A stretch of 64,000 nt of DNA, taken from assembly GCA_965228855.1 (NCBI GenBank), contig CBDDIJ010000002.1, forward strand, positions 1,696,001 through 1,760,000. Reading direction: 5' to 3'. Source of the stretch: Candidatus Obscuribacterales bacterium. GTDB taxonomy: Bacteria > Cyanobacteriota > Vampirovibrionia > Obscuribacterales > Obscuribacteraceae. Under the pieces are notes generated by a model. That model was not told the origin of the DNA, searched no databases, and saw only the letters and a list, made by a program, of their open reading frames with translations. This document shows, piece after piece, positions 3,145 through 13,323 of this stretch. Position 1 is the stretch's first letter. Each line of letters begins with the position of its first letter. A program made the position numbers and the translations under genes.

Positions 3145-6100
3145 ATGAGAAGGATCGAGCTTGCGTTGACAAGTCACCTTGCGAATCTGAAGGTGTTCGC
3201 GATTGCCGGGACTTTGCTCCTTGCTGCGACGCAACCGGCGTCGGCGCGCAATGATTTCTCTTTTCGCGATTTCCGGGAGCAGAATCCCGAGTTGGGACGG
3301 CATGAGGCGCGCCAGGCGTTTAAGTCCGAAGTTCGCGACTTGCGTCAGAACAGTCGTGTGTTCCAAGCCCCTGTAATCAACAATGTCCCATCCACCGACA
3401 CTGTTCAAGTTCAAATCGAAACTCGCGGCAACCATGCTGGCCGCGTGAACAACACGCTGCGCAATCGCTCCGCTCAGATAGGCGATTCCGGTCAATTGAT
3501 CCGCCTGAAAAGCGGCCTCGATCTCGATTTGACCTCGACTCAGCGCAATATCTCCTTAGGCAAAGGTCTGTTCGCTGATGTCGACGCTGTTCAGATAACC
3601 TTTGGCGGCGAAACCAAAACCGTCCACGCCGGCAGTCTGGTCTCCGCTGCGGAATATGTTGCTGTAAAACAGGTGCTGGATGGCGGTTCCCAGAAGGTTG
3701 TTATCGACCGCAGCGGTCGGGCTAGTGGCGGCGAGGTAAACCTTGAAGCTGTCGCATCGGATAGAACAGCTCTTCGTGCATCGTCGCTCGTGATCGCCGA
3801 AGGTGTCACCACATCCGGTGACTTCGGTCGCAACTCAGAATTTAAACTGCTTGGCGATCTGAGCAACTATGGAACATTGTATGCCTTCTCCAGTGACAGC
3901 GGTACAAAGTCTGGAGCGATTCGTGCTCACGACATCAATAATTACAAGGGTGCCACTATCGATTCCAATGTTGATTTGACGCTCGATGCTTCCGGCAATC
4001 TCAATAACTTTGGAACGATTTCGTCCACTGGCAGTCTCACGCTGACCGCTGCAGGTGCGGTCAATAATAGTCGAGGTGGTTCGGTCAAAGCGTCCGGCGA
4101 CATCAATTTGCAGGCTGATGCGGTCAACAATCAAGGCACGATAGAGTCCACCGGTAGCAATATCAATCTGCAAGGTTCGACCCTGGCGTTGATGAACGTC
4201 GATAACAACAAAGGAACCCTGAAAGCGCTAAATGGCGCCATTAACGTTCGCGATGCTTCATATTCGGGAGCCTTCGATTCATACGTAGATGGCGGCGACT
4301 TGCTCAGCAAGGAAGTGAATGTTCACACCGGATACGGTGTCGCTAATGTGTACGTCAACGAATTGACCGGCGTGCTGAATCAATACGGTTCTGCCGCGCA
4401 TATCAAGGCAGATACTGACACTCTCACCTTGGGTACAACCTGTCTGACCGGCGATCCCACGATCTACAACACATCTGGCGATATCAACATTACCGCGGAT
4501 ATCAGCGTGGCAGAGAACCTCGTTTTCGTTGCCTCCGGCGACATCATCGTAGCTGATAACGTCAATATTTTCGCAGGCGATGCTTCTCGCGGTTACGAGA
4601 TGAATTTTATCGCTGGTGCGAGCTTTGTCCCCACGGGCGGTGGTACTGACTCTCCGACGGTCCCTCCTCTAACTGGTGCTGGTGGAGTTGACTTGAACGG
4701 TAAAGCCTCGAAGACTGGAGGCGGCATCATCATGGGCACTAATGTCACAGTGACATCGAGAGCTTCAAACACATCTGGTGACTCCAACGGTGACGGCATC
4801 TTAATGGTGGCATTCAAGGGCAAAACTACGAATGCCGGTAAAGTCGACATCTCAGGCGCGACTATCAAGACGGGTGGAAGTGGGACAGGAACGAACGGTT
4901 CTTTTTTCGTGCTCGCTGCCGGCACCAAAGGCGATGTCATTAAAACGGGCGTAATCGACACCACTGGTGGTTCAGACGATAGTAATTTCGAGGGACTAAT
5001 CGGTTTATATACAGTAGACATTATTACCGAGAAGCGGACCTTCGATCCGAACATTCCGGACACTGGGCACGTTATCTACGATGCGAACGGCGTAAACATC
5101 TCGGACTATCGATTGACCGGAAATAACTTCAGTAAAGGCGGTAACCTGATTATCAACGATGTTATTCCTGGTGACGATATTAAAGGTCGGTCAATGGACC
5201 TTTACGGTGGAGGCGGAGTCAGTATTCTTGGACAGGTAAATTCTTTCTCGCTTGATCCAGGTTCCTTCGGTACCAGCATCGATATGGTGACTAACGACGC
5301 AATAACATCCGGACCAAACGGTTCGCTTAAATCGGAATCCGTAATTTTCCTGATCGCTACCAATGTAATAGGTTCATCTACAGCTCGCATCGTCACTGAC
5401 GCACCTGACGTTGAATTCTTCAACCAGAAAGGCAAGGATGTCTGGGTCACGATTCAGGGCACCGGAGAAGTGGCTATAACCGGACTGGCAAGCAGCAAAG
5501 GGATTATAGATGTCGATGCGTCGGGCAGGCAGGTCAGTTCGCCATTTAACTTGCTCTCCGCAGGTACCGTGAACATAGTTGCTGATAGTCTGGGTGGGAC
5601 CAATCCTTTTCCCGGTCCTCCGCGGAAGCTCAACAACGTTGATGCAGGCGTTCTTAACTTGCATGTTTTGAACGGAGATATAGACAACACGAATTTTGGT
5701 CCGGTCAGCGCACAGTTTGTGACTCTTACCGCCGACAACGGCTCCATTGGCACGAGCAGCAGCTTGCTCGCGGCTCCCACGGGTGTCAAACAGATGGTGC
5801 TCACTGCAGGTAATGGCGGTGTGTTTGTGAACAGCGCGAGTTCGAACTCAATCTCTGTAAGCTCTTCAGCAACCGGCGCGACGACAATTTTCGCGAACGG
5901 CAGTCTGGAGCTTTTAAATGTCTCTTCTCAAGCTGGGGATACGACGATTCAGACCTCCAATGGTACATTGACGGTTGCCGGCAATGTGACAGCGAAGGAT
6001 TCTTTGAGCATCGTCAACACTAACACTAAAGGCAAGTTTGCAATCGACAAGAACATCGTCATCGCCACAGATGGAACCGCCGGCGGTGACGGAAACATTC

Positions 6101-6336
6101 TTCTTTCCGTCGGACCGACTAATATTACTCCGGTGAGTTCGTTGCCGGCCAACGTGACGACTGACATTACCGGAACCGGAACTGTCACGATCACCGGCGG
6201 CGGTATCAAAGCAAAGTCGCCAGACAATGTGTTAATCATTCCGGCTGAAGCAGGAATCACTGTTAATAACGGTTTGAAGAGCTCAAACTTCACCATGGGC
6301 GGTGGTGTTCAGATAACCGCGACTAACAATAACTAG
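3145..6336 (+). CDS. Large secreted filamentous-haemagglutinin-like (beta-helix) adhesin-type protein, 1063 aa
   Basis: Signal peptide ending QPASA; Gly/Asn/Thr/Ser-rich FHA-like repeats (LTLDASGNLNNFGTISSTGSLTLTAAGAVNN); N-terminal region homologous to 54493..63207. Confidence 0.75.
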   Translation: MRRIELALTSHLANLKVFAIAGTLLLAATQPASARNDFSFRDFREQNPELGRHEARQAFKSEVRDLRQNSRVFQAPVINNVPSTDTVQVQIETRGNHAGRVNNTLRNRSAQIGDSGQLIRLKSGLDLDLTSTQRNISLGKGLFADVDAVQITFGGETKTVHAGSLVSAAEYVAVKQVLDGGSQKVVIDRSGRASGGEVNLEAVASDRTALRASSLVIAEGVTTSGDFGRNSEFKLLGDLSNYGTLYAFSSDSGTKSGAIRAHDINNYKGATIDSNVDLTLDASGNLNNFGTISSTGSLTLTAAGAVNNSRGGSVKASGDINLQADAVNNQGTIESTGSNINLQGSTLALMNVDNNKGTLKALNGAINVRDASYSGAFDSYVDGGDLLSKEVNVHTGYGVANVYVNELTGVLNQYGSAAHIKADTDTLTLGTTCLTGDPTIYNTSGDINITADISVAENLVFVASGDIIVADNVNIFAGDASRGYEMNFIAGASFVPTGGGTDSPTVPPLTGAGGVDLNGKASKTGGGIIMGTNVTVTSRASNTSGDSNGDGILMVAFKGKTTNAGKVDISGATIKTGGSGTGTNGSFFVLAAGTKGDVIKTGVIDTTGGSDDSNFEGLIGLYTVDIITEKRTFDPNIPDTGHVIYDANGVNISDYRLTGNNFSKGGNLIINDVIPGDDIKGRSMDLYGGGGVSILGQVNSFSLDPGSFGTSIDMVTNDAITSGPNGSLKSESVIFLIATNVIGSSTARIVTDAPDVEFFNQKGKDVWVTIQGTGEVAITGLASSKGIIDVDASGRQVSSPFNLLSAGTVNIVADSLGGTNPFPGPPRKLNNVDAGVLNLHVLNGDIDNTNFGPVSAQFVTLTADNGSIGTSSSLLAAPTGVKQMVLTAGNGGVFVNSASSNSISVSSSATGATTIFANGSLELLNVSSQAGDTTIQTSNGTLTVAGNVTAKDSLSIVNTNTKGKFAIDKNIVIATDGTAGGDGNILLSVGPTNITPVSSLPANVTTDITGTGTVTITGGGIKAKSPDNVLIIPAEAGITVNNGLKSSNFTMGGGVQITATNNN

Positions 6337-6355
6337 ACGGTCGCTCGTATATAAA

Positions 6356-6394
6356 CAGAAGAGACCGGCGTTATCTCGATGCCGGTCTCTTCTG
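6356..6394. terminator. Hairpin between convergent genes, probable bidirectional intrinsic terminator
   Basis: Perfect 14-bp inverted repeat cagaagagaccggc / gccggtctcttctg with an 11-nt loop, between stops at 6336 (+) and 6421 (-). Confidence 0.75.
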
Positions 6395-6420
6395 GTAAGT
6401 AGTCGCTTGCGTTTAATGAA

Positions 6421-6654
6421 CTATGAGCCGGTTGGACTGAACGTTCCTTCGTTGCCTAGTTCCTTGGACGCGTCGCACGCGAAGTGTCCGCATCCACAGA
6501 GTTGCATATCGTCGGATGTCTCGACCTTCTCACAAAACTCATTGCAGAATTCGCCTTCCGTCGTCTGGCAATTGCAGCCCACGTGAGAGCACGTTGCGAC
6601 TGCAGTTGCGCTTGAGCTATTGCTCTTTGCTTCACCTTTATCGTTAGTAGCCAT
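6421..6654 (-). CDS. Bacterial metallothionein-like Cys/His-rich protein
   Basis: CSHVGCNC-x7-CNEFC-x11-CGCGHFAC resembles prokaryotic metallothioneins; AGGAG RBS upstream. Confidence 0.7.
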   Translation of the reverse strand: MATNDKGEAKSNSSSATAVATCSHVGCNCQTTEGEFCNEFCEKVETSDDMQLCGCGHFACDASKELGNEGTFSPTGS

Positions 6655-6665
6655 TCTCGAATCTC

Positions 6666-6947
6666 CTATTTTGTTTTCTTTTTACCGCCATGTCCAAATC
6701 CACCACCCCAGCTCTTGCCTCGGTAGCTGCTATTGATGCTGACTCCTGTGCTACCGCCGATAGTGCCGGCGTTGAATGACGAGCGTCCAAAAGAAGCGCC
6801 GCCGAATCCGCCAGTGTTACCCGTGTGACCGCCTATGGCAATGCCACCTCCGCCAGCTGAGACAGCTGCCGGACCTGCGATAGCTTGGGTGTTTTAAGCC
6901 GCTAGAAACATTATTACAGCTGCAGAAACCGTTACTCTAGCTTTCAT
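6666..6947 (-). pseudogene. Gly-rich secreted peptide gene interrupted by an in-frame TAA (codon 18, 6894-6896)
   Basis: My translation: MKARVTVSAAVIMFLAA*NTQAIAGPAAVSAGGGGIAIGGHTGNTGGFGGASFGRSSFNAGTIGGSTGVSINSSYRGKSWGGGFGHGGKKKTK*. AGAGG RBS upstream. Its TAG overlaps the RBS of the metallothionein-like gene. Confidence 0.65.
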
Positions 6948-7091
6948 AATTTGCCTCTAAATTTCCGATATTTACGAGGCGTAATTGAGTATCAGTTGTT
7001 CCCCGTCTGTGAATCTAGGTGAACTAAGCTTTTATATTCGACTTGCAGTAAGATTAAGCTGAAAGCGAAACGAATCGAAAGGAGAGTCGCC

Positions 7092-8063
7092 TTGAAGAAT
7101 CGAAACAGCGGAAGGCGCGGGGCGAAGGCGCTTGCAGCACTACTTTTCGCCGGTGGACTCATTGTGTCCTCTCAGCCAGCTTTCTCTGAGAGCAAGGTCG
7201 CCGTCGACGACTCAACGATTCGGAAGATCGCTGAAACGCAGATAACGCCGGAAGGACGCGCATACCATTTGCTTAGATACTGTCGCTCCGTTCTTCAAAG
7301 CGGGAATGCTCAGGTTTTAGAAGAAAACTTCCACTATCTCAATGAGCCGAGATATTTTTTTCGAGAGTCAAACATTTTGGCAAACTGGGCTGATGAGCTC
7401 GCCACTAAAAAACTGGACAGTGGAAAACAGTCGAAAGCGTCGAAGAACGCAGTTGTCGCTGAGCACGCTCTGAAAGAGGCCGTCTCGCAGCTAAATAAAT
7501 CGACCAAGAGTTCTATAAAGCTGCATTTATTTTTCATTGCGTCACTTCTGGCTAAACAATCCGGTCATAACGATGTCGCGAAAGAGTGCGATAGCTATGT
7601 TTCGAAAAACATCGATGCCTGTGAAGCGAGTTCGAATGTTGATCTTGAATTGGTTACGGCTGCCGTTTCAGCTTTAAACTCGATGGCGTATGCTATCGTA
7701 CCGATCCGAATTGCAGAACACGAGCAGCCGCCTGGGAAGAACCCGCAGGTCGTTGCCGGAGACCAATCACCGAACGCCGAGGAATTTAAACAGGCGGAGA
7801 AACTAAAACTACGAGCCGCTTCGATCGCTGACCGGCTACCCGCGGACGAGCACGTGCGCCGAAAGGTTCACCGCGATCTATCGCTCTGGTATAAGCAACT
7901 CGGCAAGCCTGAGTTGGCTGATAAGCAAAAGAAAATCGTTTTTCAACTCGTTGGCGTAAACGATGACCGAATACTTTTTCCATCGTCAGGAGTTTGTGGA
8001 CATTTGCTGTGGTGGAAATTGACTTCCGCTAACGCTGCTCGGGTCAAATGCGGCATGGGTTAA
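7092..8063 (+). CDS. Secreted helical protein with C-terminal CGMG motif; putative MNIO substrate (protein-sized RiPP precursor)
   Basis: GGAGAG RBS then TTG; signal peptide (…GRRGAKALAALLFAGGLIVSSQPAFS); ends GVCGHLLWWKLTSANAARVKCGMG*; lies directly upstream of a DUF692 gene. Confidence 0.75.
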   Translation: MKNRNSGRRGAKALAALLFAGGLIVSSQPAFSESKVAVDDSTIRKIAETQITPEGRAYHLLRYCRSVLQSGNAQVLEENFHYLNEPRYFFRESNILANWADELATKKLDSGKQSKASKNAVVAEHALKEAVSQLNKSTKSSIKLHLFFIASLLAKQSGHNDVAKECDSYVSKNIDACEASSNVDLELVTAAVSALNSMAYAIVPIRIAEHEQPPGKNPQVVAGDQSPNAEEFKQAEKLKLRAASIADRLPADEHVRRKVHRDLSLWYKQLGKPELADKQKKIVFQLVGVNDDRILFPSSGVCGHLLWWKLTSANAARVKCGMG

Positions 8064-8111
8064 TGATGTATTTGCGAAGGACGGCGACGGCGTTTAGGAA
8101 GCGATCAGAAG

Positions 8112-8999
8112 ATGCAGATGCTCAGTCAGAAACCGAAGCTAGGACTTTCCTTAATGCCTTCTGAGGATTTTCAGCAGGCGACCCTTGAGTTGTTTGAACA
8201 AGATCGAGTTGAGGTGGTTGAGTGGAGTTTCGATTTCGCGTTGACCGGTGCCGAGATCGATGTTTGGTCTGCGCAAATTCTTGATCGGTTCAGTAACAAA
8301 AATGCTTTGCTTGGTCACGGTGTGAATCTATCACCGCTATCGGCGAGCTTTTCCGAGCGGCAGGAAAAGTGGTTGGCGCATGCGCGCAGTGAGTTTGAAT
8401 TTAGAAAGTACGTGCATGCTTCGGAACATTTTGGATTCTCGGAGGCGGGACCGATTGCTCACGGCGCACCGTTGGCGGTGCCAATGACTCCTGAATCGCT
8501 CCGTCGCGGCAAGGAGATGCTTAAGCGATACGCTGATGCCGTCCAGTGTCCGGTTGGATTAGAGAATCTGGCGTTTGCCTTTTGCATGGAGGACGTTAAA
8601 CGGCAAGGCGAGTTTATCGATCAATTAATTTCCTCTGTCGATGGATTTTTGCTTTTAGATGCCCATAACATTTATTGCCAGGTTGAAAACTTCGGAGTGC
8701 CTGAACGCGAACTATTGGATTCTTACCCGCTCTCAAAAGTCCGTGAGATACACCTGTCGGGCGGTTCGTGGAGTTTCTCCGAGTCCGGAGCACGACTCGC
8801 TGTGAGGAGAGATACTCATGACGATGTGGTCCCGCAGGAGGTCTTCAATATTGCCACTTTGGCTTTGAAGCTTTGTCCAAGCATTCAGTATGTTATCCTT
8901 GAGCGACTCGCGTACACCATGATGGAACCAGAGCAGCAGCAAGGTTTTCGCGAAGATTTTGAAACCATTGAGGAGATTCTGGAGCTTTGCTATGTCTGA
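8112..8999 (+). CDS. DUF692 family multinuclear non-heme iron oxidative enzyme (MNIO), ChrH-like
   Basis: Family motifs GHGVNLS, SEHFGF, VGLENLAF, LLLDAHNIYCQ, VREIHLSGG, RRDTHDD, VILER. The N-terminus KPKLGLSLMP...VEWSFD matches my recollection of the ChrH subgroup. Confidence 0.92.
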   Translation: MQMLSQKPKLGLSLMPSEDFQQATLELFEQDRVEVVEWSFDFALTGAEIDVWSAQILDRFSNKNALLGHGVNLSPLSASFSERQEKWLAHARSEFEFRKYVHASEHFGFSEAGPIAHGAPLAVPMTPESLRRGKEMLKRYADAVQCPVGLENLAFAFCMEDVKRQGEFIDQLISSVDGFLLLDAHNIYCQVENFGVPERELLDSYPLSKVREIHLSGGSWSFSESGARLAVRRDTHDDVVPQEVFNIATLALKLCPSIQYVILERLAYTMMEPEQQQGFREDFETIEEILELCYV

Positions 9000-9195
9000 A
9001 GAGTCTGATTTTAAACGGTTTCAAGACGCGCTTGCGGAGCTGCTTGCGAGCGGTTTAACGCAATCGGAAATTCTTGATACGCTGAAAGCCGATTCGCGCT
9101 TTGATTGCTATCGCGAATACGTTGATAGCTTTGAACCGGATATGGTGGCAGTCGCTTGTGAGCTTATGGGGCGATGGGCGAAGCGCAAAGAATGA
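8992..9195 (+). CDS. Small helical protein (67 aa), putative MNIO partner / substrate-recognition subunit
   Basis: GGAG RBS at 8981 and ATG at 8992, overlapping the DUF692 stop by 8 nt; MSEESDFKRFQDALAELL...VACELMGRWAKRKE. Confidence 0.7.
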   Translation: MSEESDFKRFQDALAELLASGLTQSEILDTLKADSRFDCYREYVDSFEPDMVAVACELMGRWAKRKE

Positions 9196-9216
9196 CCGTT
9201 TGAAGTTTCAAGTGGC

Positions 9217-9486
9217 TCAAGCTAGTTCGGGCGGAGGTCCCATCAATGGTCCAGTGTAGCTGCACGAGTTGCATCGGACCATTTGGCCTTCAGTCACCCA
9301 GTCACACGCCGATATGCAAGTTCTGGACGATTTGCGCTTTGGCTCGCCCTTGACTTTTGGCGTGCGAAAAATTTGATCGCAAAACGAACATCGCATGACG
9401 ACCCAATCGCCTTCTTCGTGAAGGACCGGTCCGTAGTGCTTATAGTGGCAGAGATCTTCGTCTAAATCGTCAAACATGGTTTTCAA
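9217..9486 (-). CDS. Small Cys-rich protein with two zinc-ribbon-like units
   Basis: Internal repeat DWVVMRCSFC / DWVTEGQMVRCNSC, plus CHYKH and CISAC. Confidence 0.55.
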   Translation of the reverse strand: MKTMFDDLDEDLCHYKHYGPVLHEEGDWVVMRCSFCDQIFRTPKVKGEPKRKSSRTCISACDWVTEGQMVRCNSCSYTGPLMGPPPELA

Positions 9487-9537
9487 CTCGCCATAGAATT
9501 TTAAGGCGCCCGGCGACCATGTTCCAGCAAAGTTGTC

Positions 9538-11343
9538 TTAGAAGCAAGAGCGAACCGGTTTACTTGTTGAGCGGGCTGAGTTTTTGTATTTCGGAACAAT
9601 GTTAAAAGTGTTGAAGTATCGTCTCTCTGGATCCAAACATTTATAGACCGCATTTTCAGTGAACCAGCCATTGTCTGGACCCATTCTGGAACCACCTTTT
9701 CGTTCTCGCCAACCTGTCACTTTGTCGGTAAGTCTGTCAAGCCGGAATTCTATAGAACGGCTCGCATTGCCACACCAGTTTCCACTATTTAAGCGAAAGT
9801 AGATGATCTCATCTTTGTCATTTGTGCTGCTCCTGCTGAGTAAGCGATAAATTTCACTTCGGTCCATGCCGATTACATCGTAGTCATCTAAAAATTTTCG
9901 CCATAAGTCTACTCTGTTCATGGACTGTTCCTGGTCCAAGCGTTTCCACTCGTCCGGATCAAAGCCGCCCGGTCTTTTATTGCGGACAATGAAAGTGTCA
10001 CCATCCTTTTGGATTTCGCTGAAGCTGCAAGGGACCACAATTTTGCCAAGTTTATTTGATACGCCCCAGCGTAGTTCGTGCTTTTGGTTCTTGGCCTCAG
10101 CTAAGCGAGCAAAGCCTTCACCTATATTCTCTATTTCATAAAATTGAGCATTCAGTACAATCCGTCCCAATGAGTTCATTAGTCCGAGCTTCTTTCTTGC
10201 GACTTCATTGTTGTCTTCGTCGAGTATATCGATATCATCTGAAGCGCTTCCACCCTCGCCGAAGATCCATAAACCGTCTTTCGAGCGAGCGTCAAGAAAG
10301 GTAACTCTGGGTGGGAGTTTAAGCATCAATTCTCCAGCACGCGAGAGCAGCATCCATCGCCCATCTTTGACGCCGGCGAGTTTGTCTCCCTGAAGTTCAA
10401 GCACTGTATATAGTGGCTCAATCACAAATTTTCCGGATCTATCGATGATGCCTGAATGTGTTTCGTCAACACTGACAAATGCAAATGTTTTATTCAAAAA
10501 ATCGCCTGCACTGAAGAATGGTCCGGCTACAATCTCTCCTGAAGTGTCAATGAAGGCAGCCTTTTTAGAGCCTCCATGGAGCATCTCCACAACTGCTCGA
10601 CCGTTGTGAAAGTCTCGCCCGCTTGCGAATCTACCTGGTTCAACTGCCAGGGTTCCGCTTTCGTCAAAGTAGCAGATCGAAACTGCGTCTGGGCCGTAAG
10701 TTCTTGCCCGAAGCAAACCGTCGCAATATCGATGCGACTCTAAGTGAATTGTTTGTGAGAAAGTTAATAGGACTTTGCCGCCACTAGCAATCAGCTCAGT
10801 TCTTTTGAACCCATCATCTTGGTAGGACTCACGGATAAATCGATCTGACCCAAGGTATTGCAGACTGGAGCACTTTGATAGTGGGACAAGAATATTGCCG
10901 TCTCTGTCACAGAAACCGCGCTCACCAGCAGAATTCTCGATCTCAAACATCTCATCGCCCCGGAAGAAATATCTGGTGATCGACGTCGGAAGATTGGGAG
11001 GTCGTTCTTGACTCTGCTTCTTAGTGCCGTTACTTTCTGAGCCGGACTTCGATTCTTCGCCAGCTGGCTTCTTTTGTCCCTTGGCGTTTACCAAGAACGC
11101 GTCATGATTCTTGTCCAAGTAGTGAGGTTCTACCAAAAACCATCCGTCAGCTCTTTTTGTAATACGTCCATAAATTGGCTTCGCCAAAATGTTTCCGTCT
11201 TTATCGATCAAACCAAAATCGTCAGCTCCGGCCGAAGTGTGGAAACCTAAGACGACGAAGGCTGAGACCGCATACAGTATCACTTTTGGCAAGTGATTCA
11301 AGCCGACTGTAATTAAGCTCTTCCTGATAGACGCTCGCTTCAT
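9538..11343 (-). CDS. Secreted WG-repeat (KWG-type) protein
   Basis: Signal-like N-terminus; repeated FGLIDKDGNILAKPIY, RGFCDRDGNILVP, GIIDRSGKFVIEPLY, WGVSNKLGKIVVPCSF. Confidence 0.85.
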   Translation of the reverse strand: MKRASIRKSLITVGLNHLPKVILYAVSAFVVLGFHTSAGADDFGLIDKDGNILAKPIYGRITKRADGWFLVEPHYLDKNHDAFLVNAKGQKKPAGEESKSGSESNGTKKQSQERPPNLPTSITRYFFRGDEMFEIENSAGERGFCDRDGNILVPLSKCSSLQYLGSDRFIRESYQDDGFKRTELIASGGKVLLTFSQTIHLESHRYCDGLLRARTYGPDAVSICYFDESGTLAVEPGRFASGRDFHNGRAVVEMLHGGSKKAAFIDTSGEIVAGPFFSAGDFLNKTFAFVSVDETHSGIIDRSGKFVIEPLYTVLELQGDKLAGVKDGRWMLLSRAGELMLKLPPRVTFLDARSKDGLWIFGEGGSASDDIDILDEDNNEVARKKLGLMNSLGRIVLNAQFYEIENIGEGFARLAEAKNQKHELRWGVSNKLGKIVVPCSFSEIQKDGDTFIVRNKRPGGFDPDEWKRLDQEQSMNRVDLWRKFLDDYDVIGMDRSEIYRLLSRSSTNDKDEIIYFRLNSGNWCGNASRSIEFRLDRLTDKVTGWRERKGGSRMGPDNGWFTENAVYKCLDPERRYFNTFNIVPKYKNSARSTSKPVRSCF

Positions 11344-11566
11344 AAACTTCTCGAATCATGCACGAAACTCACCTAATTCTAAATCAATCGTCAAATCTTG
11401 GCTTAGGTTGCGAGGTTGATGTGAATGGCGGCCGCCGTACGAACTCATCCTTCACCCGGGTGATTTTGCTCGTCGCGTTGCACAACTGCAGTATGCGCAG
11501 ACCGCTGCTGCCGGACAGGTTGCTGCTTTATGTGGGATGGGTTAACGACGAAGGCGGTCGGGATAG

Positions 11567-11596
11567 AAAAAGGGCTCGCGAGTTTTCGCGAACCCC
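11567..11596 (-). terminator. Intrinsic terminator downstream of the hemerythrin-domain gene
   Basis: Minus strand ggggttcgcgaaaactcgcgagccc followed by TTTTT. Confidence 0.7.
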
Positions 11597-11618
11597 AGGA
11601 GCTTGTATTTACCTCCGC

Positions 11619-12500
11619 TTAGCGACTTTTCTTGCGCTTAGATTGAGTGGAAGAAGCTTTCTTTCTGCCCGCCGCAGAGGCTGGTTTCGACTTCGCTCCA
11701 GCTTTCTTCGCGGTGCTCTTCTTTGTCGACGAGGCGCGAGTTTTTGAACTACTCATTTTACTTTTCGCCTTTGAGCTTGTTTTTGTTCCAGTCCTGGACG
11801 CTGTTTTTCCAGAGGCTTTTGAGCTTGTTTTCTTCGCGCCAGCTTTTGCCTTTGTCTTAGTGGCAGTGCGGCCCTTCTGTTTAGGCTTCGCGGTTTTCTT
11901 TGCTGCAGTCGTTTTCGCTTTTGATTTCGATGCCGGTTTTTTCTTCGTTGCTTTCTGCATGGCAGGAGATTGCAGCGGTTCTACGGCGTCCAGATCGCTG
12001 TAGGTTTCCTGTAACTCCATTTTGAGGTCCAGCATTTTTTCTTTCAGTTCGTCGAAATCGATGTCCAGCTCTCTGAGCGCGGGGAACATCTCTTCCTCTT
12101 CTTCCTTGATATGGTGCTTCACAAGTTCGGATAGCACCTTAAACTTGGCATCGAACTTCTCATCGCTTTCGTCCATTCCTTTCATCTCTGTAATGACGAA
12201 ATCAACGACGCGGTGCTCTTCTTCTGCTTCGAGTTTCAGGTCTTCGTCTTCTTCATCGTCGCTTTCTTCAAGCAAAGGATAAACAAGCTCCTCTTCCAAT
12301 TTCGTATGCACGACTAGTGAAAGAACAGTGTCAACAAAGATTGAATATTTTTCGCCATCGCCCGATGCGCTTTCAAATTTTTCAAAGTTTTCTTTCACAT
12401 GGGCGTGGTCCATTTTTAACATCTCCAGCGGGTCGCTTACCGCTCTCAATGTTTCAAAATCTTCCTTCTCGTGTGAAACCACTTTCAATTTTGCATTCAT
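11619..12500 (-). CDS. Hemerythrin-like (HHE) domain protein with histone-H1-like Lys/Ala/Ser/Thr-rich C-terminal tail
   Basis: LKMDH, HTKLEEELVYP, EEEHRVV, HHIKEEEEEMFP, then about 110 aa of KKTAKPKQK/KAKAGAKK-type sequence. Confidence 0.88.
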   Translation of the reverse strand: MNAKLKVVSHEKEDFETLRAVSDPLEMLKMDHAHVKENFEKFESASGDGEKYSIFVDTVLSLVVHTKLEEELVYPLLEESDDEEDEDLKLEAEEEHRVVDFVITEMKGMDESDEKFDAKFKVLSELVKHHIKEEEEEMFPALRELDIDFDELKEKMLDLKMELQETYSDLDAVEPLQSPAMQKATKKKPASKSKAKTTAAKKTAKPKQKGRTATKTKAKAGAKKTSSKASGKTASRTGTKTSSKAKSKMSSSKTRASSTKKSTAKKAGAKSKPASAAGRKKASSTQSKRKKSR

Positions 12501-12727
12501 GCGTTTTCTCCTCGACCATCTATTTTGATTGCGTTCTATTGTCTAAGTAGCAAGAAATAAACAGCTAATGCTGCGGTAATGGGCATCAGTACTGGTGTCG
12601 CGGAAACTCACTTGGGTGGCAAACGTCAAGTTACCCATAGGTTAGAAAAGGAAGGCACTGTGGATGGTGTCATTGTTTTCTTCTTGCCGGATGGTCGGCA
12701 CTTCGGGCTCAGGCTTTTTTACATGAA

Positions 12728-12757
12728 AGAAGAGCAGCTCGTACGAGCTGCTCTTCT
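12728..12757 (-). terminator. Perfect 30-bp palindrome, probable terminator of the BON/general-stress operon
   Basis: agaagagcagctcgt|acgagctgctcttct, 26 nt past the stop at 12784. Confidence 0.7.
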
Positions 12758-12783
12758 GAAGGTCCGGTTGGTTCGAGGCGGAT

Positions 12784-13323
12784 TTAGTTTTTCTTCACAG
12801 CTGCTTCGCCGACACGGTGAATGTCAGTTGCGTTATTTGCTTTGAAGATTTCCTCAGCTTTTTTGAGCTGCTCTTTGTCGTCGCTATGTGCAGCGATCAA
12901 GATGTTGCCGTCGCGAATTTTGCCTTCGTACATTTTGGCTTCGTACTCAGGAATTCCCATTCCGATAAGGGCTCCGGCGACTCCAGCGACGGTAGCTCCG
13001 ACTGCAGCGCCGCTGAGTGCTGCCATAATCGGTCCTGCTGCGATCAGTGGACCGACACCAGGGATGGCGAGAGCGCCAATGCCGGCTAAGAGTCCGAGCG
13101 CGCCGCCAATTATACCGCCTGTAGTGGCGCCTGTTACTGCGCCTTCCGGTGCTTTACTTGCAGCGTCGTGAGCGAAATCTTTAGCGCCTTCTTTATCTGG
13201 AAACAGAATCGAGATGTTGCTGTCGATAAATCCGAAGGACTTGAGTTCGGAAACGAGTTGCTCTGCCTGCGGGGTGGATTGAACTATTCCAACAATTGCG
13301 TGGTTTTTCATTTTGTACTCCAT
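12784..13323 (-). CDS. General stress protein (YflT/17M-like, glycine-zipper membrane protein)
   Basis: GAVTGATTGGIIGGALGLLAGIGALAIPGVGPLIAAGP...GIPEYEAKMYEGKIRDGNILI. Confidence 0.85.
   Translation of the reverse strand: MEYKMKNHAIVGIVQSTPQAEQLVSELKSFGFIDSNISILFPDKEGAKDFAHDAASKAPEGAVTGATTGGIIGGALGLLAGIGALAIPGVGPLIAAGPIMAALSGAAVGATVAGVAGALIGMGIPEYEAKMYEGKIRDGNILIAAHSDDKEQLKKAEEIFKANNATDIHRVGEAAVKKN

What the first reader, a model, noticed from the sequence alone, without database searches (positions are those of the whole stretch)
7092..9195. ChrH-like MNIO operon whose apparent substrate is a full-size exported protein ending in -CGMG
Seen: a tight operon of (i) a 323-aa signal-peptide-bearing helical protein ending ...GVCGHLLWWKLTSANAARVKCGMG*, (ii) a DUF692/MNIO with the full set of metal-ligand motifs, and (iii) a translationally coupled 67-aa protein. 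Established: the MNIO ChrH, with partner ChrI, rearranges the C-terminal CPACGMG motif of the short precursor ChrA into a macrocycle with an imidazolidinedione and a thiomethyl group; MNIOs generally need a partner protein. Inference: the CGMG tag is grafted onto a folded secreted protein, so this would be RiPP chemistry used as a protein post-translational modification. The first Cys of CPAC is missing. The nearest other Cys is 18 residues upstream (C302 vs C320), predicting a larger ring or different chemistry. No protease, transporter or short precursor is evident in the operon. The 67-aa partner looks much smaller than typical MNIO partners.
Basis: partly seen in the sequence, partly recalled or inferred. 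Interest (0 to 1): 0.9.

Follow-up and report, generated by a model that had tools for sequence, protein, structure and literature searches.

The report
Long-loop variant of MelA/MelH system
This is a known kind of operon in which an iron enzyme rewires the two-cysteine tail of a large exported protein, but here and in many relatives the two cysteines are about 16 residues apart instead of 2, which suggests a much larger ring that has not been tested.

Summary
All three genes are real. The operon is an orthologue of the published mel cluster (PMC13056109). The MNIO is 70.9% identical to MelH and the 67-aa protein 52% to MelHc, the split-off ChrH C-terminal domain. 'RiPP chemistry on a secreted protein' is therefore already shown for MelA1 (-4 Da, unmethylated). 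The first Cys is not missing: C302 sits in the same LFP-x4-C register as the first Cys of CPACGMG, with 17 residues between the cysteines instead of 2. This long-loop tail (C-G-x3-WW-variable-CGMG) has a 15-19 spacer in 156 of 180 homologues. It is the only precursor type at 19 of 27 melH loci, and 24 of 25 genomes that carry it have melH. Most likely MelH/MelHc oxidises C320 to the hydantoin and C302 closes a ring of about 58 atoms; this is inferred, not shown. I found no description of the long form in the main texts read; supplements were closed and may show it. The scan noted related MNIO/protein-substrate loci on other DNA, none of this family by sequence. New variant of a known kind.

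The parts
7092..8063 (+). MelA-family precursor protein, long-loop type (323 aa, TPR-like helical body)
   Evidence: 25.5% identical to MelA1 over 321 columns, E 3e-17, and 36.9% to the second MelA-like gene at the published locus; weak TPR_12 hit, E 0.012; all-helical AF2 model, mean pLDDT 86
7092..7187 (+). Probable Sec/SPI signal peptide (residues 1-32; cleavage site inferred by eye)
   Evidence: Basic N-region, hydrophobic core, no lipobox in 121 of 121 aligned homologues; twin-Arg in only 8 of the 51 with a usable N-region; MelA1 is SPI by SignalP in PMC13056109
7980..8015 (+). Conserved P-x4-C302-G-x3-W307-W308 motif; C302 is the homologue of the first Cys of CPACGMG
   Evidence: C302 98%, G303 94%, W307 99%, W308 98% in 121 sequences; same LFP-x4-C register as MelA1
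8016..8048 (+). Variable loop, residues 309-319
   Evidence: Mean entropy 3.5 bits against 1.6 for residues 231-300; pLDDT about 70 for 311-320
8049..8060 (+). C-terminal C320-G-M-G, the predicted site of oxidation and hydantoin formation
   Evidence: C320, G321, G323 invariant and M322 88% in 121 sequences; chemistry inferred from PMC13056109 and PMC13733907
8112..8999 (+). MelH orthologue (ChrH-subfamily MNIO, core barrel only)
   Evidence: 70.9% identical to MelH over 292 aa; H69, E105, H106, E151, D183, H185, H214, D234, H236, E264 invariant in 28 of 28
8992..9195 (+). MelHc orthologue (separately encoded ChrH C-terminal helical bundle, 67 aa)
   Evidence: 52% identical to MelHc over 65 aa, E 3e-25; also matches residues 331-383 of a fused MNIO in L016, E 1e-6; fused to MelH in L073

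Best explanation
The operon is a mel-type system. MelH and MelHc form a cytoplasmic heterodimeric iron oxidase that recognises the C-terminal CGMG of the 323-aa protein. Steps shown for relatives (DybH, MelH/MelA1) and transferred here by homology: oxidation of the last Cys (C320) to a thioaldehyde, backbone rearrangement with Gly-Met to a hydantoin, and a reactive -4 Da (proposed episulfide) intermediate. Inferred step: C302, the displaced first Cys, opens that intermediate and closes a thioether ring around 17 residues (about 58 ring atoms by my count, against 13 for CPAC), leaving a free thiol. The CG-x3-WW segment packs on the helical body and may hold C302 near the tail. The protein is then exported through Sec and signal peptidase I. 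Paralogues present different loops on the same scaffold, which fits a binding role outside the cell; the ligand is not known. My odds: orthology about 0.95, substrate of MelH about 0.8, ring closed by C302 of the same chain about 0.55.
For: Orthology: L007 is the published locus, since its precursor gives a LysC fragment of calculated mass 1388.62, the value in the paper; identities 70.9% (MelH) and 52% (MelHc). Register: LFP-x4-C is shared with MelA1, and 14 of 24 short-tag proteins have LFP at exactly that distance. Among 159 homologues with a 10-22 spacer, L(-7) is in 149, P(-5) in 141, G(+1) in 150 and W(+5/+6) in 150/154. Natural intermediates with spacers 3, 3 and 5 branch between the short and long forms in a tree built without the tails. 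Linkage: of 301 genomes, 25 carry the long form and 24 of these have a close MelH; none of the 34 genomes with only a distant ChrH-like MNIO does. At 26 other melH loci, 18 are long-only, 5 mixed and 3 short-only, and these classes are interspersed on the MelH tree. Eight of the 19 long-only genomes have no in-frame CxxCG[MILRS]G-stop gene. Chemistry: DybH still acts on APACGMG, so the first Cys acts last (PMC13733907); DybH accepts a 3-residue spacer and a GFP-borne tag (PMC12636315 section 10).
Against: No experiment exists for any spacer above 3 in the texts read. This genome also holds a canonical short-tag TPR gene elsewhere (C2:2531568-2532302, ends CLACGRG), and in-frame short-tag genes lie away from the melH locus in G193, G084, G096, G212, G252, G140, G224 and G228 (G140 and G228 beside a second, distant MNIO), so MelH could be kept for those. 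The pattern covers only spacer 2 and some middle residues. G104 has a long-type match without MelH (truncated ORF at a contig end). Two loci keep melH with only a precursor remnant (L099, L100), and the precursor is split in G228. A second conserved Cys pair (C166 89%, C177 71%) shows these proteins probably form ordinary disulfides too. Without a nearby first Cys, glutathione intercepts the intermediate in E. coli, so slow ring closure could lose out. Related genomes are not independent samples.
Confidence: 0.55

Rival explanations
1. MelH/MelHc modifies CGMG to the hydantoin/episulfide, but C302 of the same chain is not the nucleophile. The intermediate is opened by C302 of the partner subunit (covalent dimer), by a small thiol, or by a target protein.
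For: MelA1 is a dimer by SEC (PMC13056109). The DybA C44A intermediate is released and captured by glutathione at either carbon (PMC13733907). In the AF2 model residues 291-310 are ordered (pLDDT 90-94) while the tail is not (58-70), so the last 15 residues could reach elsewhere.
Against: C302 keeps the exact register of the intramolecular nucleophile, and spacers of 2, 3, 5 and 15-19 form a graded series. Spacer length is narrow (16 in 101 of 167), which suits a fixed intramolecular geometry. Dimerisation of the long form was not tested.
Confidence: 0.22
2. The long-loop proteins are no longer MNIO substrates. C302 and C320 form a plain periplasmic disulfide, and MelH is kept for short-tag genes elsewhere in the genome.
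For: Short-tag genes exist in trans in this genome and in several others. Two long-loop paralogues here lie far from melH. The family has another conserved Cys pair.
Against: A disulfide would not need an invariant terminal C-G-x-G-stop. The long form is almost confined to genomes with a close MelH (24 of 25) and usually lies directly upstream in tandem. Eight long-only genomes show no short-tag gene by the pattern used.
Confidence: 0.15
3. MelH makes a different product on the long form, for example a formylglycine, a thioaldehyde-derived group or a metal site built from C302, nearby residues and the modified C320.
For: Stalled DybH gives -18 Da formylglycine and -2 Da products; ChrA C63S gives -36 Da (PMC10214503 passages). 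Other MNIO products bind copper (PMC13056109 introduction).
Against: All Fe ligands, including the Fe3 pair needed for the full reaction (D234/H236, matching DybH D228/H230), are invariant. H304 is only 44% conserved. No conserved metal-homeostasis neighbour was seen among the loci listed.
Confidence: 0.08

Closest known systems
mel cluster: MelA1 / MelH / MelHc of a Melainabacteria MAG (PMC13056109; locus L007)
   Same: Same three-gene layout; MNIO 70.9% and small protein 52% identical; homologous 30-40 kDa secreted TPR-like precursor with terminal CGMG and the same LFP-x4-C register.
   Different: 17 residues between the cysteines instead of 2, with a conserved G-x3-WW and a variable loop; an extra conserved Cys pair in the body; long forms are one side of a well-supported branch (SH-aLRT 99). 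MelA1-like proteins at E <= 1e-18 were found in 9 of 9 genomes of one genus and 0 of 17 others, though a more distant short-tag TPR exists in G224. The published locus itself carries an untested long-type gene (L007:5380-6366).
DybA/DybH (DAG-RiPP, Dyadobacter; PMC13056109, PMC13733907)
   Same: Same enzyme subfamily and Fe ligands; tag-only recognition; tolerance of a one-residue ring expansion (PMC12636315).
   Different: DybA is a short lipoprotein with a lipobox and DybH is a fused enzyme; here there is no lipobox, the enzyme is split and the substrate is about 32 kDa.
ChrA/ChrH (chryseobasin; PMC10214503)
   Same: Best NCBIfam model is MNIO_ChrH; terminal CGMG; SPI export.
   Different: ChrA is a short peptide with CPACGMG; no ChrI here; methylation is not expected.

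Membership tests
mel-type ChrH subfamily (MelA/MelH/MelHc) | MNIO of the ChrH subfamily, orthologous to MelH | tested here: met
   MNIO_ChrH 326 bits (MelH itself 325; both under the 600 cut-off), BufB 83 bits; 70.9% identity; one 27-row clade with support 99
mel-type ChrH subfamily (MelA/MelH/MelHc) | Complete set of iron ligands | tested here: met
   H69/H106, D183/H214, D234/H236 correspond by motif and offset to DybH H65/H102, D179/H210, D228/H230 (DybH itself was not aligned) and are invariant in 28 of 28
mel-type ChrH subfamily (MelA/MelH/MelHc) | C-terminal helical bundle encoded as a separate small gene | tested here: met
   52% to MelHc; matches the C-terminal domain of a fused MNIO
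mel-type ChrH subfamily (MelA/MelH/MelHc) | 30-40 kDa secreted TPR-like precursor homologous to MelA1 | tested here: met
   BLASTP E 3e-17; helical model; signal peptide judged from sequence only
mel-type ChrH subfamily (MelA/MelH/MelHc) | C-terminal CPxCGxG motif (two-residue spacer) | tested here: not met
   Spacer is 17 here and 15-19 in 156 of 180 homologues; both Cys and the GxG end are kept
mel-type ChrH subfamily (MelA/MelH/MelHc) | -4 Da macrocycle plus hydantoin product | not testable with these tools
   Needs co-expression and mass spectrometry
mel-type ChrH subfamily (MelA/MelH/MelHc) | Precursor homodimer | not tested
   Shown for MelA1 by SEC in PMC13056109; no job run on the dimer
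DAG-RiPP (DybA type) | Lipobox Cys and short precursor | tested here: not met
   0 of 121 with a lipobox-like motif in the first 45 aa
Chryseobasin (ChrA/ChrH/ChrI) | Short CPACGMG precursor near a fused ChrH | tested here: not met
   No ORF of 25 aa or more ends in CPxCGxG in the genome; no NCBIfam precursor hit
Bufferin / oxazolin MNIO systems | BufB/HvfB-type enzyme | tested here: not met
   83 and 64 bits against cut-offs 310 and 360; the genome's three other MNIOs are of that type

The most novel reading that the evidence does not exclude
In this bacterial family the common MelH substrate is not a CPAC tag but a secreted TPR-like scaffold whose last 22 residues are enzymatically closed into a thioether/hydantoin ring of about 55-58 atoms (or cross-linked between subunits). 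Tandem paralogues with exchanged tails would then form a small natural library of macrocyclic loops displayed on proteins, and MelH/MelHc would be a tool for cyclising arbitrary loops of 15-19 residues.
Probability: 0.5. Interest if true: 0.7.

Novelty: new variant of a known kind. Interest (0 to 1): 0.5.

Why it matters
The published rule for this enzyme subfamily is a CPxCGxG tag and a small ring, stretched by one residue in the laboratory. The genomes suggest nature stretched the spacer to 15-19 residues and made this the more widespread form. If the ring forms, it widens the known scope of MNIO chemistry several-fold, gives a genetically encoded way to close large variable loops on a protein, and points to loop display rather than a fixed small ring as the purpose of the modification, whose function the authors call unknown. 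One co-expression experiment decides it, and an untested long-type gene sits at the very locus already cloned.

Tried and rejected
Co-folding MelH + MelHc + precursor (residues 40-323) with three Fe gave no verdict (median 0.02, mark 0.32); it is not used either way. Foldseek against the PDB found no match at E <= 0.001, only weak helical-repeat and 14-3-3 hits. The ESM Atlas gave generic TPR clusters with weak recognition. Diversifying selection on the loop was not found: dN/dS 0.28 in the loop against 0.20 in the body, on 6 independent equal-length pairs out of 8 close pairs, 61 loop codons; two pairs have identical loops. Tat export was considered and set aside (twin-Arg in 8 of 51). The promoter and terminator scan was at or below chance. 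A metagenome scan with the precursor alignment could not run; the MNIO was used instead. 'First Cys missing' was rejected on register and conservation. 'The genome has no short-tag substrate' was rejected on finding C2:2531568-2532302. The precursor tree is the quick tree, unrooted, with 69 rows, so the direction short-to-long is not shown. Literature searches gave no paper on the long-spacer form; the library lacks most subscription papers.

Full report
Observation. The 295-aa protein is an MNIO (PF05114) whose best NCBIfam model is ChrH, covering positions 1-283 of 363. Three ORFs in the 8.2-Mb genome end in CGMG against 0.008 expected among 5696 long ORFs, and all three are paralogues with the same tail pattern. 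The closest named MNIO (95% identical, L001) is from a Candidatus Obscuribacterales genome, which places the organism by inference.

The system is published. PMC13056109 (parts 1-5 of 7 of the main text read, plus passages; supplements not seen) describes the mel cluster: a 34-kDa SPI-signal TPR protein MelA1 ending in CPACGMG, the MNIO MelH, and MelHc, the ChrH C-terminal bundle as a separate gene. MelH alone did nothing; MelH with MelHc gave an unmethylated -4 Da product. ChrI was found dispensable. Locus L007 is that cluster: its upstream gene gives a LysC fragment of calculated mass 1388.62, the value printed in the paper, and a 34.2-kDa protein. The window's MNIO is 70.9% identical to MelH, its 67-aa protein 52% to MelHc, and its precursor 25.5% to MelA1. 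The small protein also matches the C-terminal domain of a fused MNIO, and the two are fused in L073.

What differs is the tail. Aligned with MelA1, LFP-x4-C302 falls on LFP-x4-C of CPAC, and 15 extra residues lie between the cysteines. Among 180 proteins from two searches with the window's precursor (the query favours long forms), 167 end in CGxG and 156 have a spacer of 15-19, with 16 in 101. The other 13 are mostly fragments or lack the end. In an alignment of 121 near-full-length members that I picked from the 180, C302 is 98% conserved, G303 94%, W307 99%, W308 98%, and C320, G321 and G323 are invariant, while residues 309-319 are the most variable segment. The AF2 model is all-helical, ordered through about residue 310 and uncertain in the last 13 residues. 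Spacers of 3, 3 and 5 occur naturally and branch between the short and long groups in an unrooted quick tree built without the tails; the 53 long forms are one side of a branch with support 99.

The long form travels with MelH. Of 301 genomes of the class, 61 have a ChrH-like MNIO, all in the window's family, and 27 of these are 64% or more identical. The long form was found in 25 genomes, 24 of them among the 27, none among the other 34, and one (G104, a truncated ORF at a contig end) among the 240 without; only 7 candidates per genome were scored and kin are not independent. At the 26 other close melH loci, 18 have only long-type genes, 5 both types and 3 only short types, often in tandem arrays of up to six. 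The three classes are interspersed on the MelH tree, with mixed and short-only loci as sisters, and all iron ligands are invariant. MelA1-like proteins at E <= 1e-18 were found in 9 of 9 genomes of one genus and in 0 of 17 others. Of 13 metagenome loci, 7 have a long-type gene beside melH (one of them with short types too), 1 has a short type only, 1 has a family member cut by the contig end, 2 have only a remnant and 2 lack the upstream DNA. The published locus itself holds a long-type gene downstream of melHc (L007:5380-6366, 36.9% identical to the window's). 'MelA2' does not occur in the preprint's main text or in the passages of the paper shown, but the name MelA1 suggests that the supplement may list it.

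Against the reading. This genome has a separate secreted TPR gene ending in CLACGRG (C2:2531568-2532302), related to a precursor beside a distant MNIO in G178 (E 4e-21), so MelH may have a canonical substrate in trans. A pattern search for CxxCG[MILRS]G followed by a stop or Trp codon hit 23 of 27 genomes; 30 hit loci were checked for frame. In-frame short-tag genes lie elsewhere in G193, G084, G096, G212, G252, G140, G224 and G228. Eight of the 19 long-only genomes have none: four had no hit and four had only Trp-codon hits (65-95% complete). G181 and G216 each have one unchecked hit, and G216 has a MelA1-like gene elsewhere. The loop shows no excess of amino-acid change, although tails are mosaic between paralogues: two genes 92% identical in the body have tails that match other paralogues better. 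A second Cys pair (C166, C177) is conserved in the long form.

Mechanism. PMC13733907 (parts 1-2 of 3 read, the whole main text) shows that DybH first oxidises the last Cys, forms the hydantoin, and only then uses the first Cys; without it a -4 Da intermediate forms and glutathione adds (+303 Da). PMC12636315 (section 10 and passages) shows tag-only recognition and tolerance of CPAACGMG. PMC10214503 and PMC12452194 were seen as passages only; the latter has no mention of CGMG, CPAC or Melainabacteria. These results make modification at C320 likely whatever the spacer. Whether C302 closes the ring within the chain, across a dimer, or not at all is open. I favour the intramolecular ring because of the kept register, the graded spacers and the narrow spacer length. 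Ring sizes (13 and 58 atoms) are my count from the published structure. The biological role is not shown; tandem paralogues with differing loops on a secreted scaffold suggest binding of varied extracellular partners, which is inference.

Verdict. A member of the mel-type system in enzyme and layout, but not in the defining CPxCGxG motif: a new variant of a known kind. Interest 0.5. Earlier notes of this scan describe other ChrH/MelH-type loci with protein substrates; none matched this protein by sequence.

Noticed in passing
G000 C2:2531568-2532302 (+), outside the window: Orphan 244-aa secreted TPR protein ending in CLACGRG, related to the precursor beside the MNIO in L082; a possible canonical MelH substrate in trans.
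   Followed up: partly
G000 C3:2874982-2876025 (-) and C5:931562-932614 (-): Two more long-loop paralogues (347 and 350 aa) with no MNIO nearby.
   Followed up: partly
window 6421-6654 (-): 77-aa ORF with 8 Cys and 2 His that resembles a bacterial metallothionein (resemblance recalled; no family hit). Among the fetched loci it was found only in this genome and in L055, so it is not a conserved part of the system.
   Followed up: partly
window about 6660-6950 (-): Broken gene for a Gly-rich secreted protein: an in-frame stop and a deletion of about 315 bp relative to the intact copy in L055.
   Followed up: partly
L055 compared with window 4243-12990: The close relative (MNIO 95% identical) has four long-type paralogues at this locus against one here; the extra three lie in stretches absent from the window, showing fast gene turnover.
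   Followed up: partly
G000 C2:1433107-1434003, C5:55417-56466, C5:1042088-1042984: Three further MNIOs of BufB/HvfB type; the last lies beside a 299-aa ORF ending in repeated CGGG.
   Followed up: no
L082, L083, L085-L088, L113, L139: More distant ChrH-like MNIOs of the same bacterial family pair with other short-tag precursors of 82-539 aa (CPACGRG, CLGCGMG, CRACGMG, CPTCGKG).
   Followed up: no
L079, L080, L067, L068, L070: Tails of tandem paralogues look exchanged independently of their bodies.
   Followed up: partly
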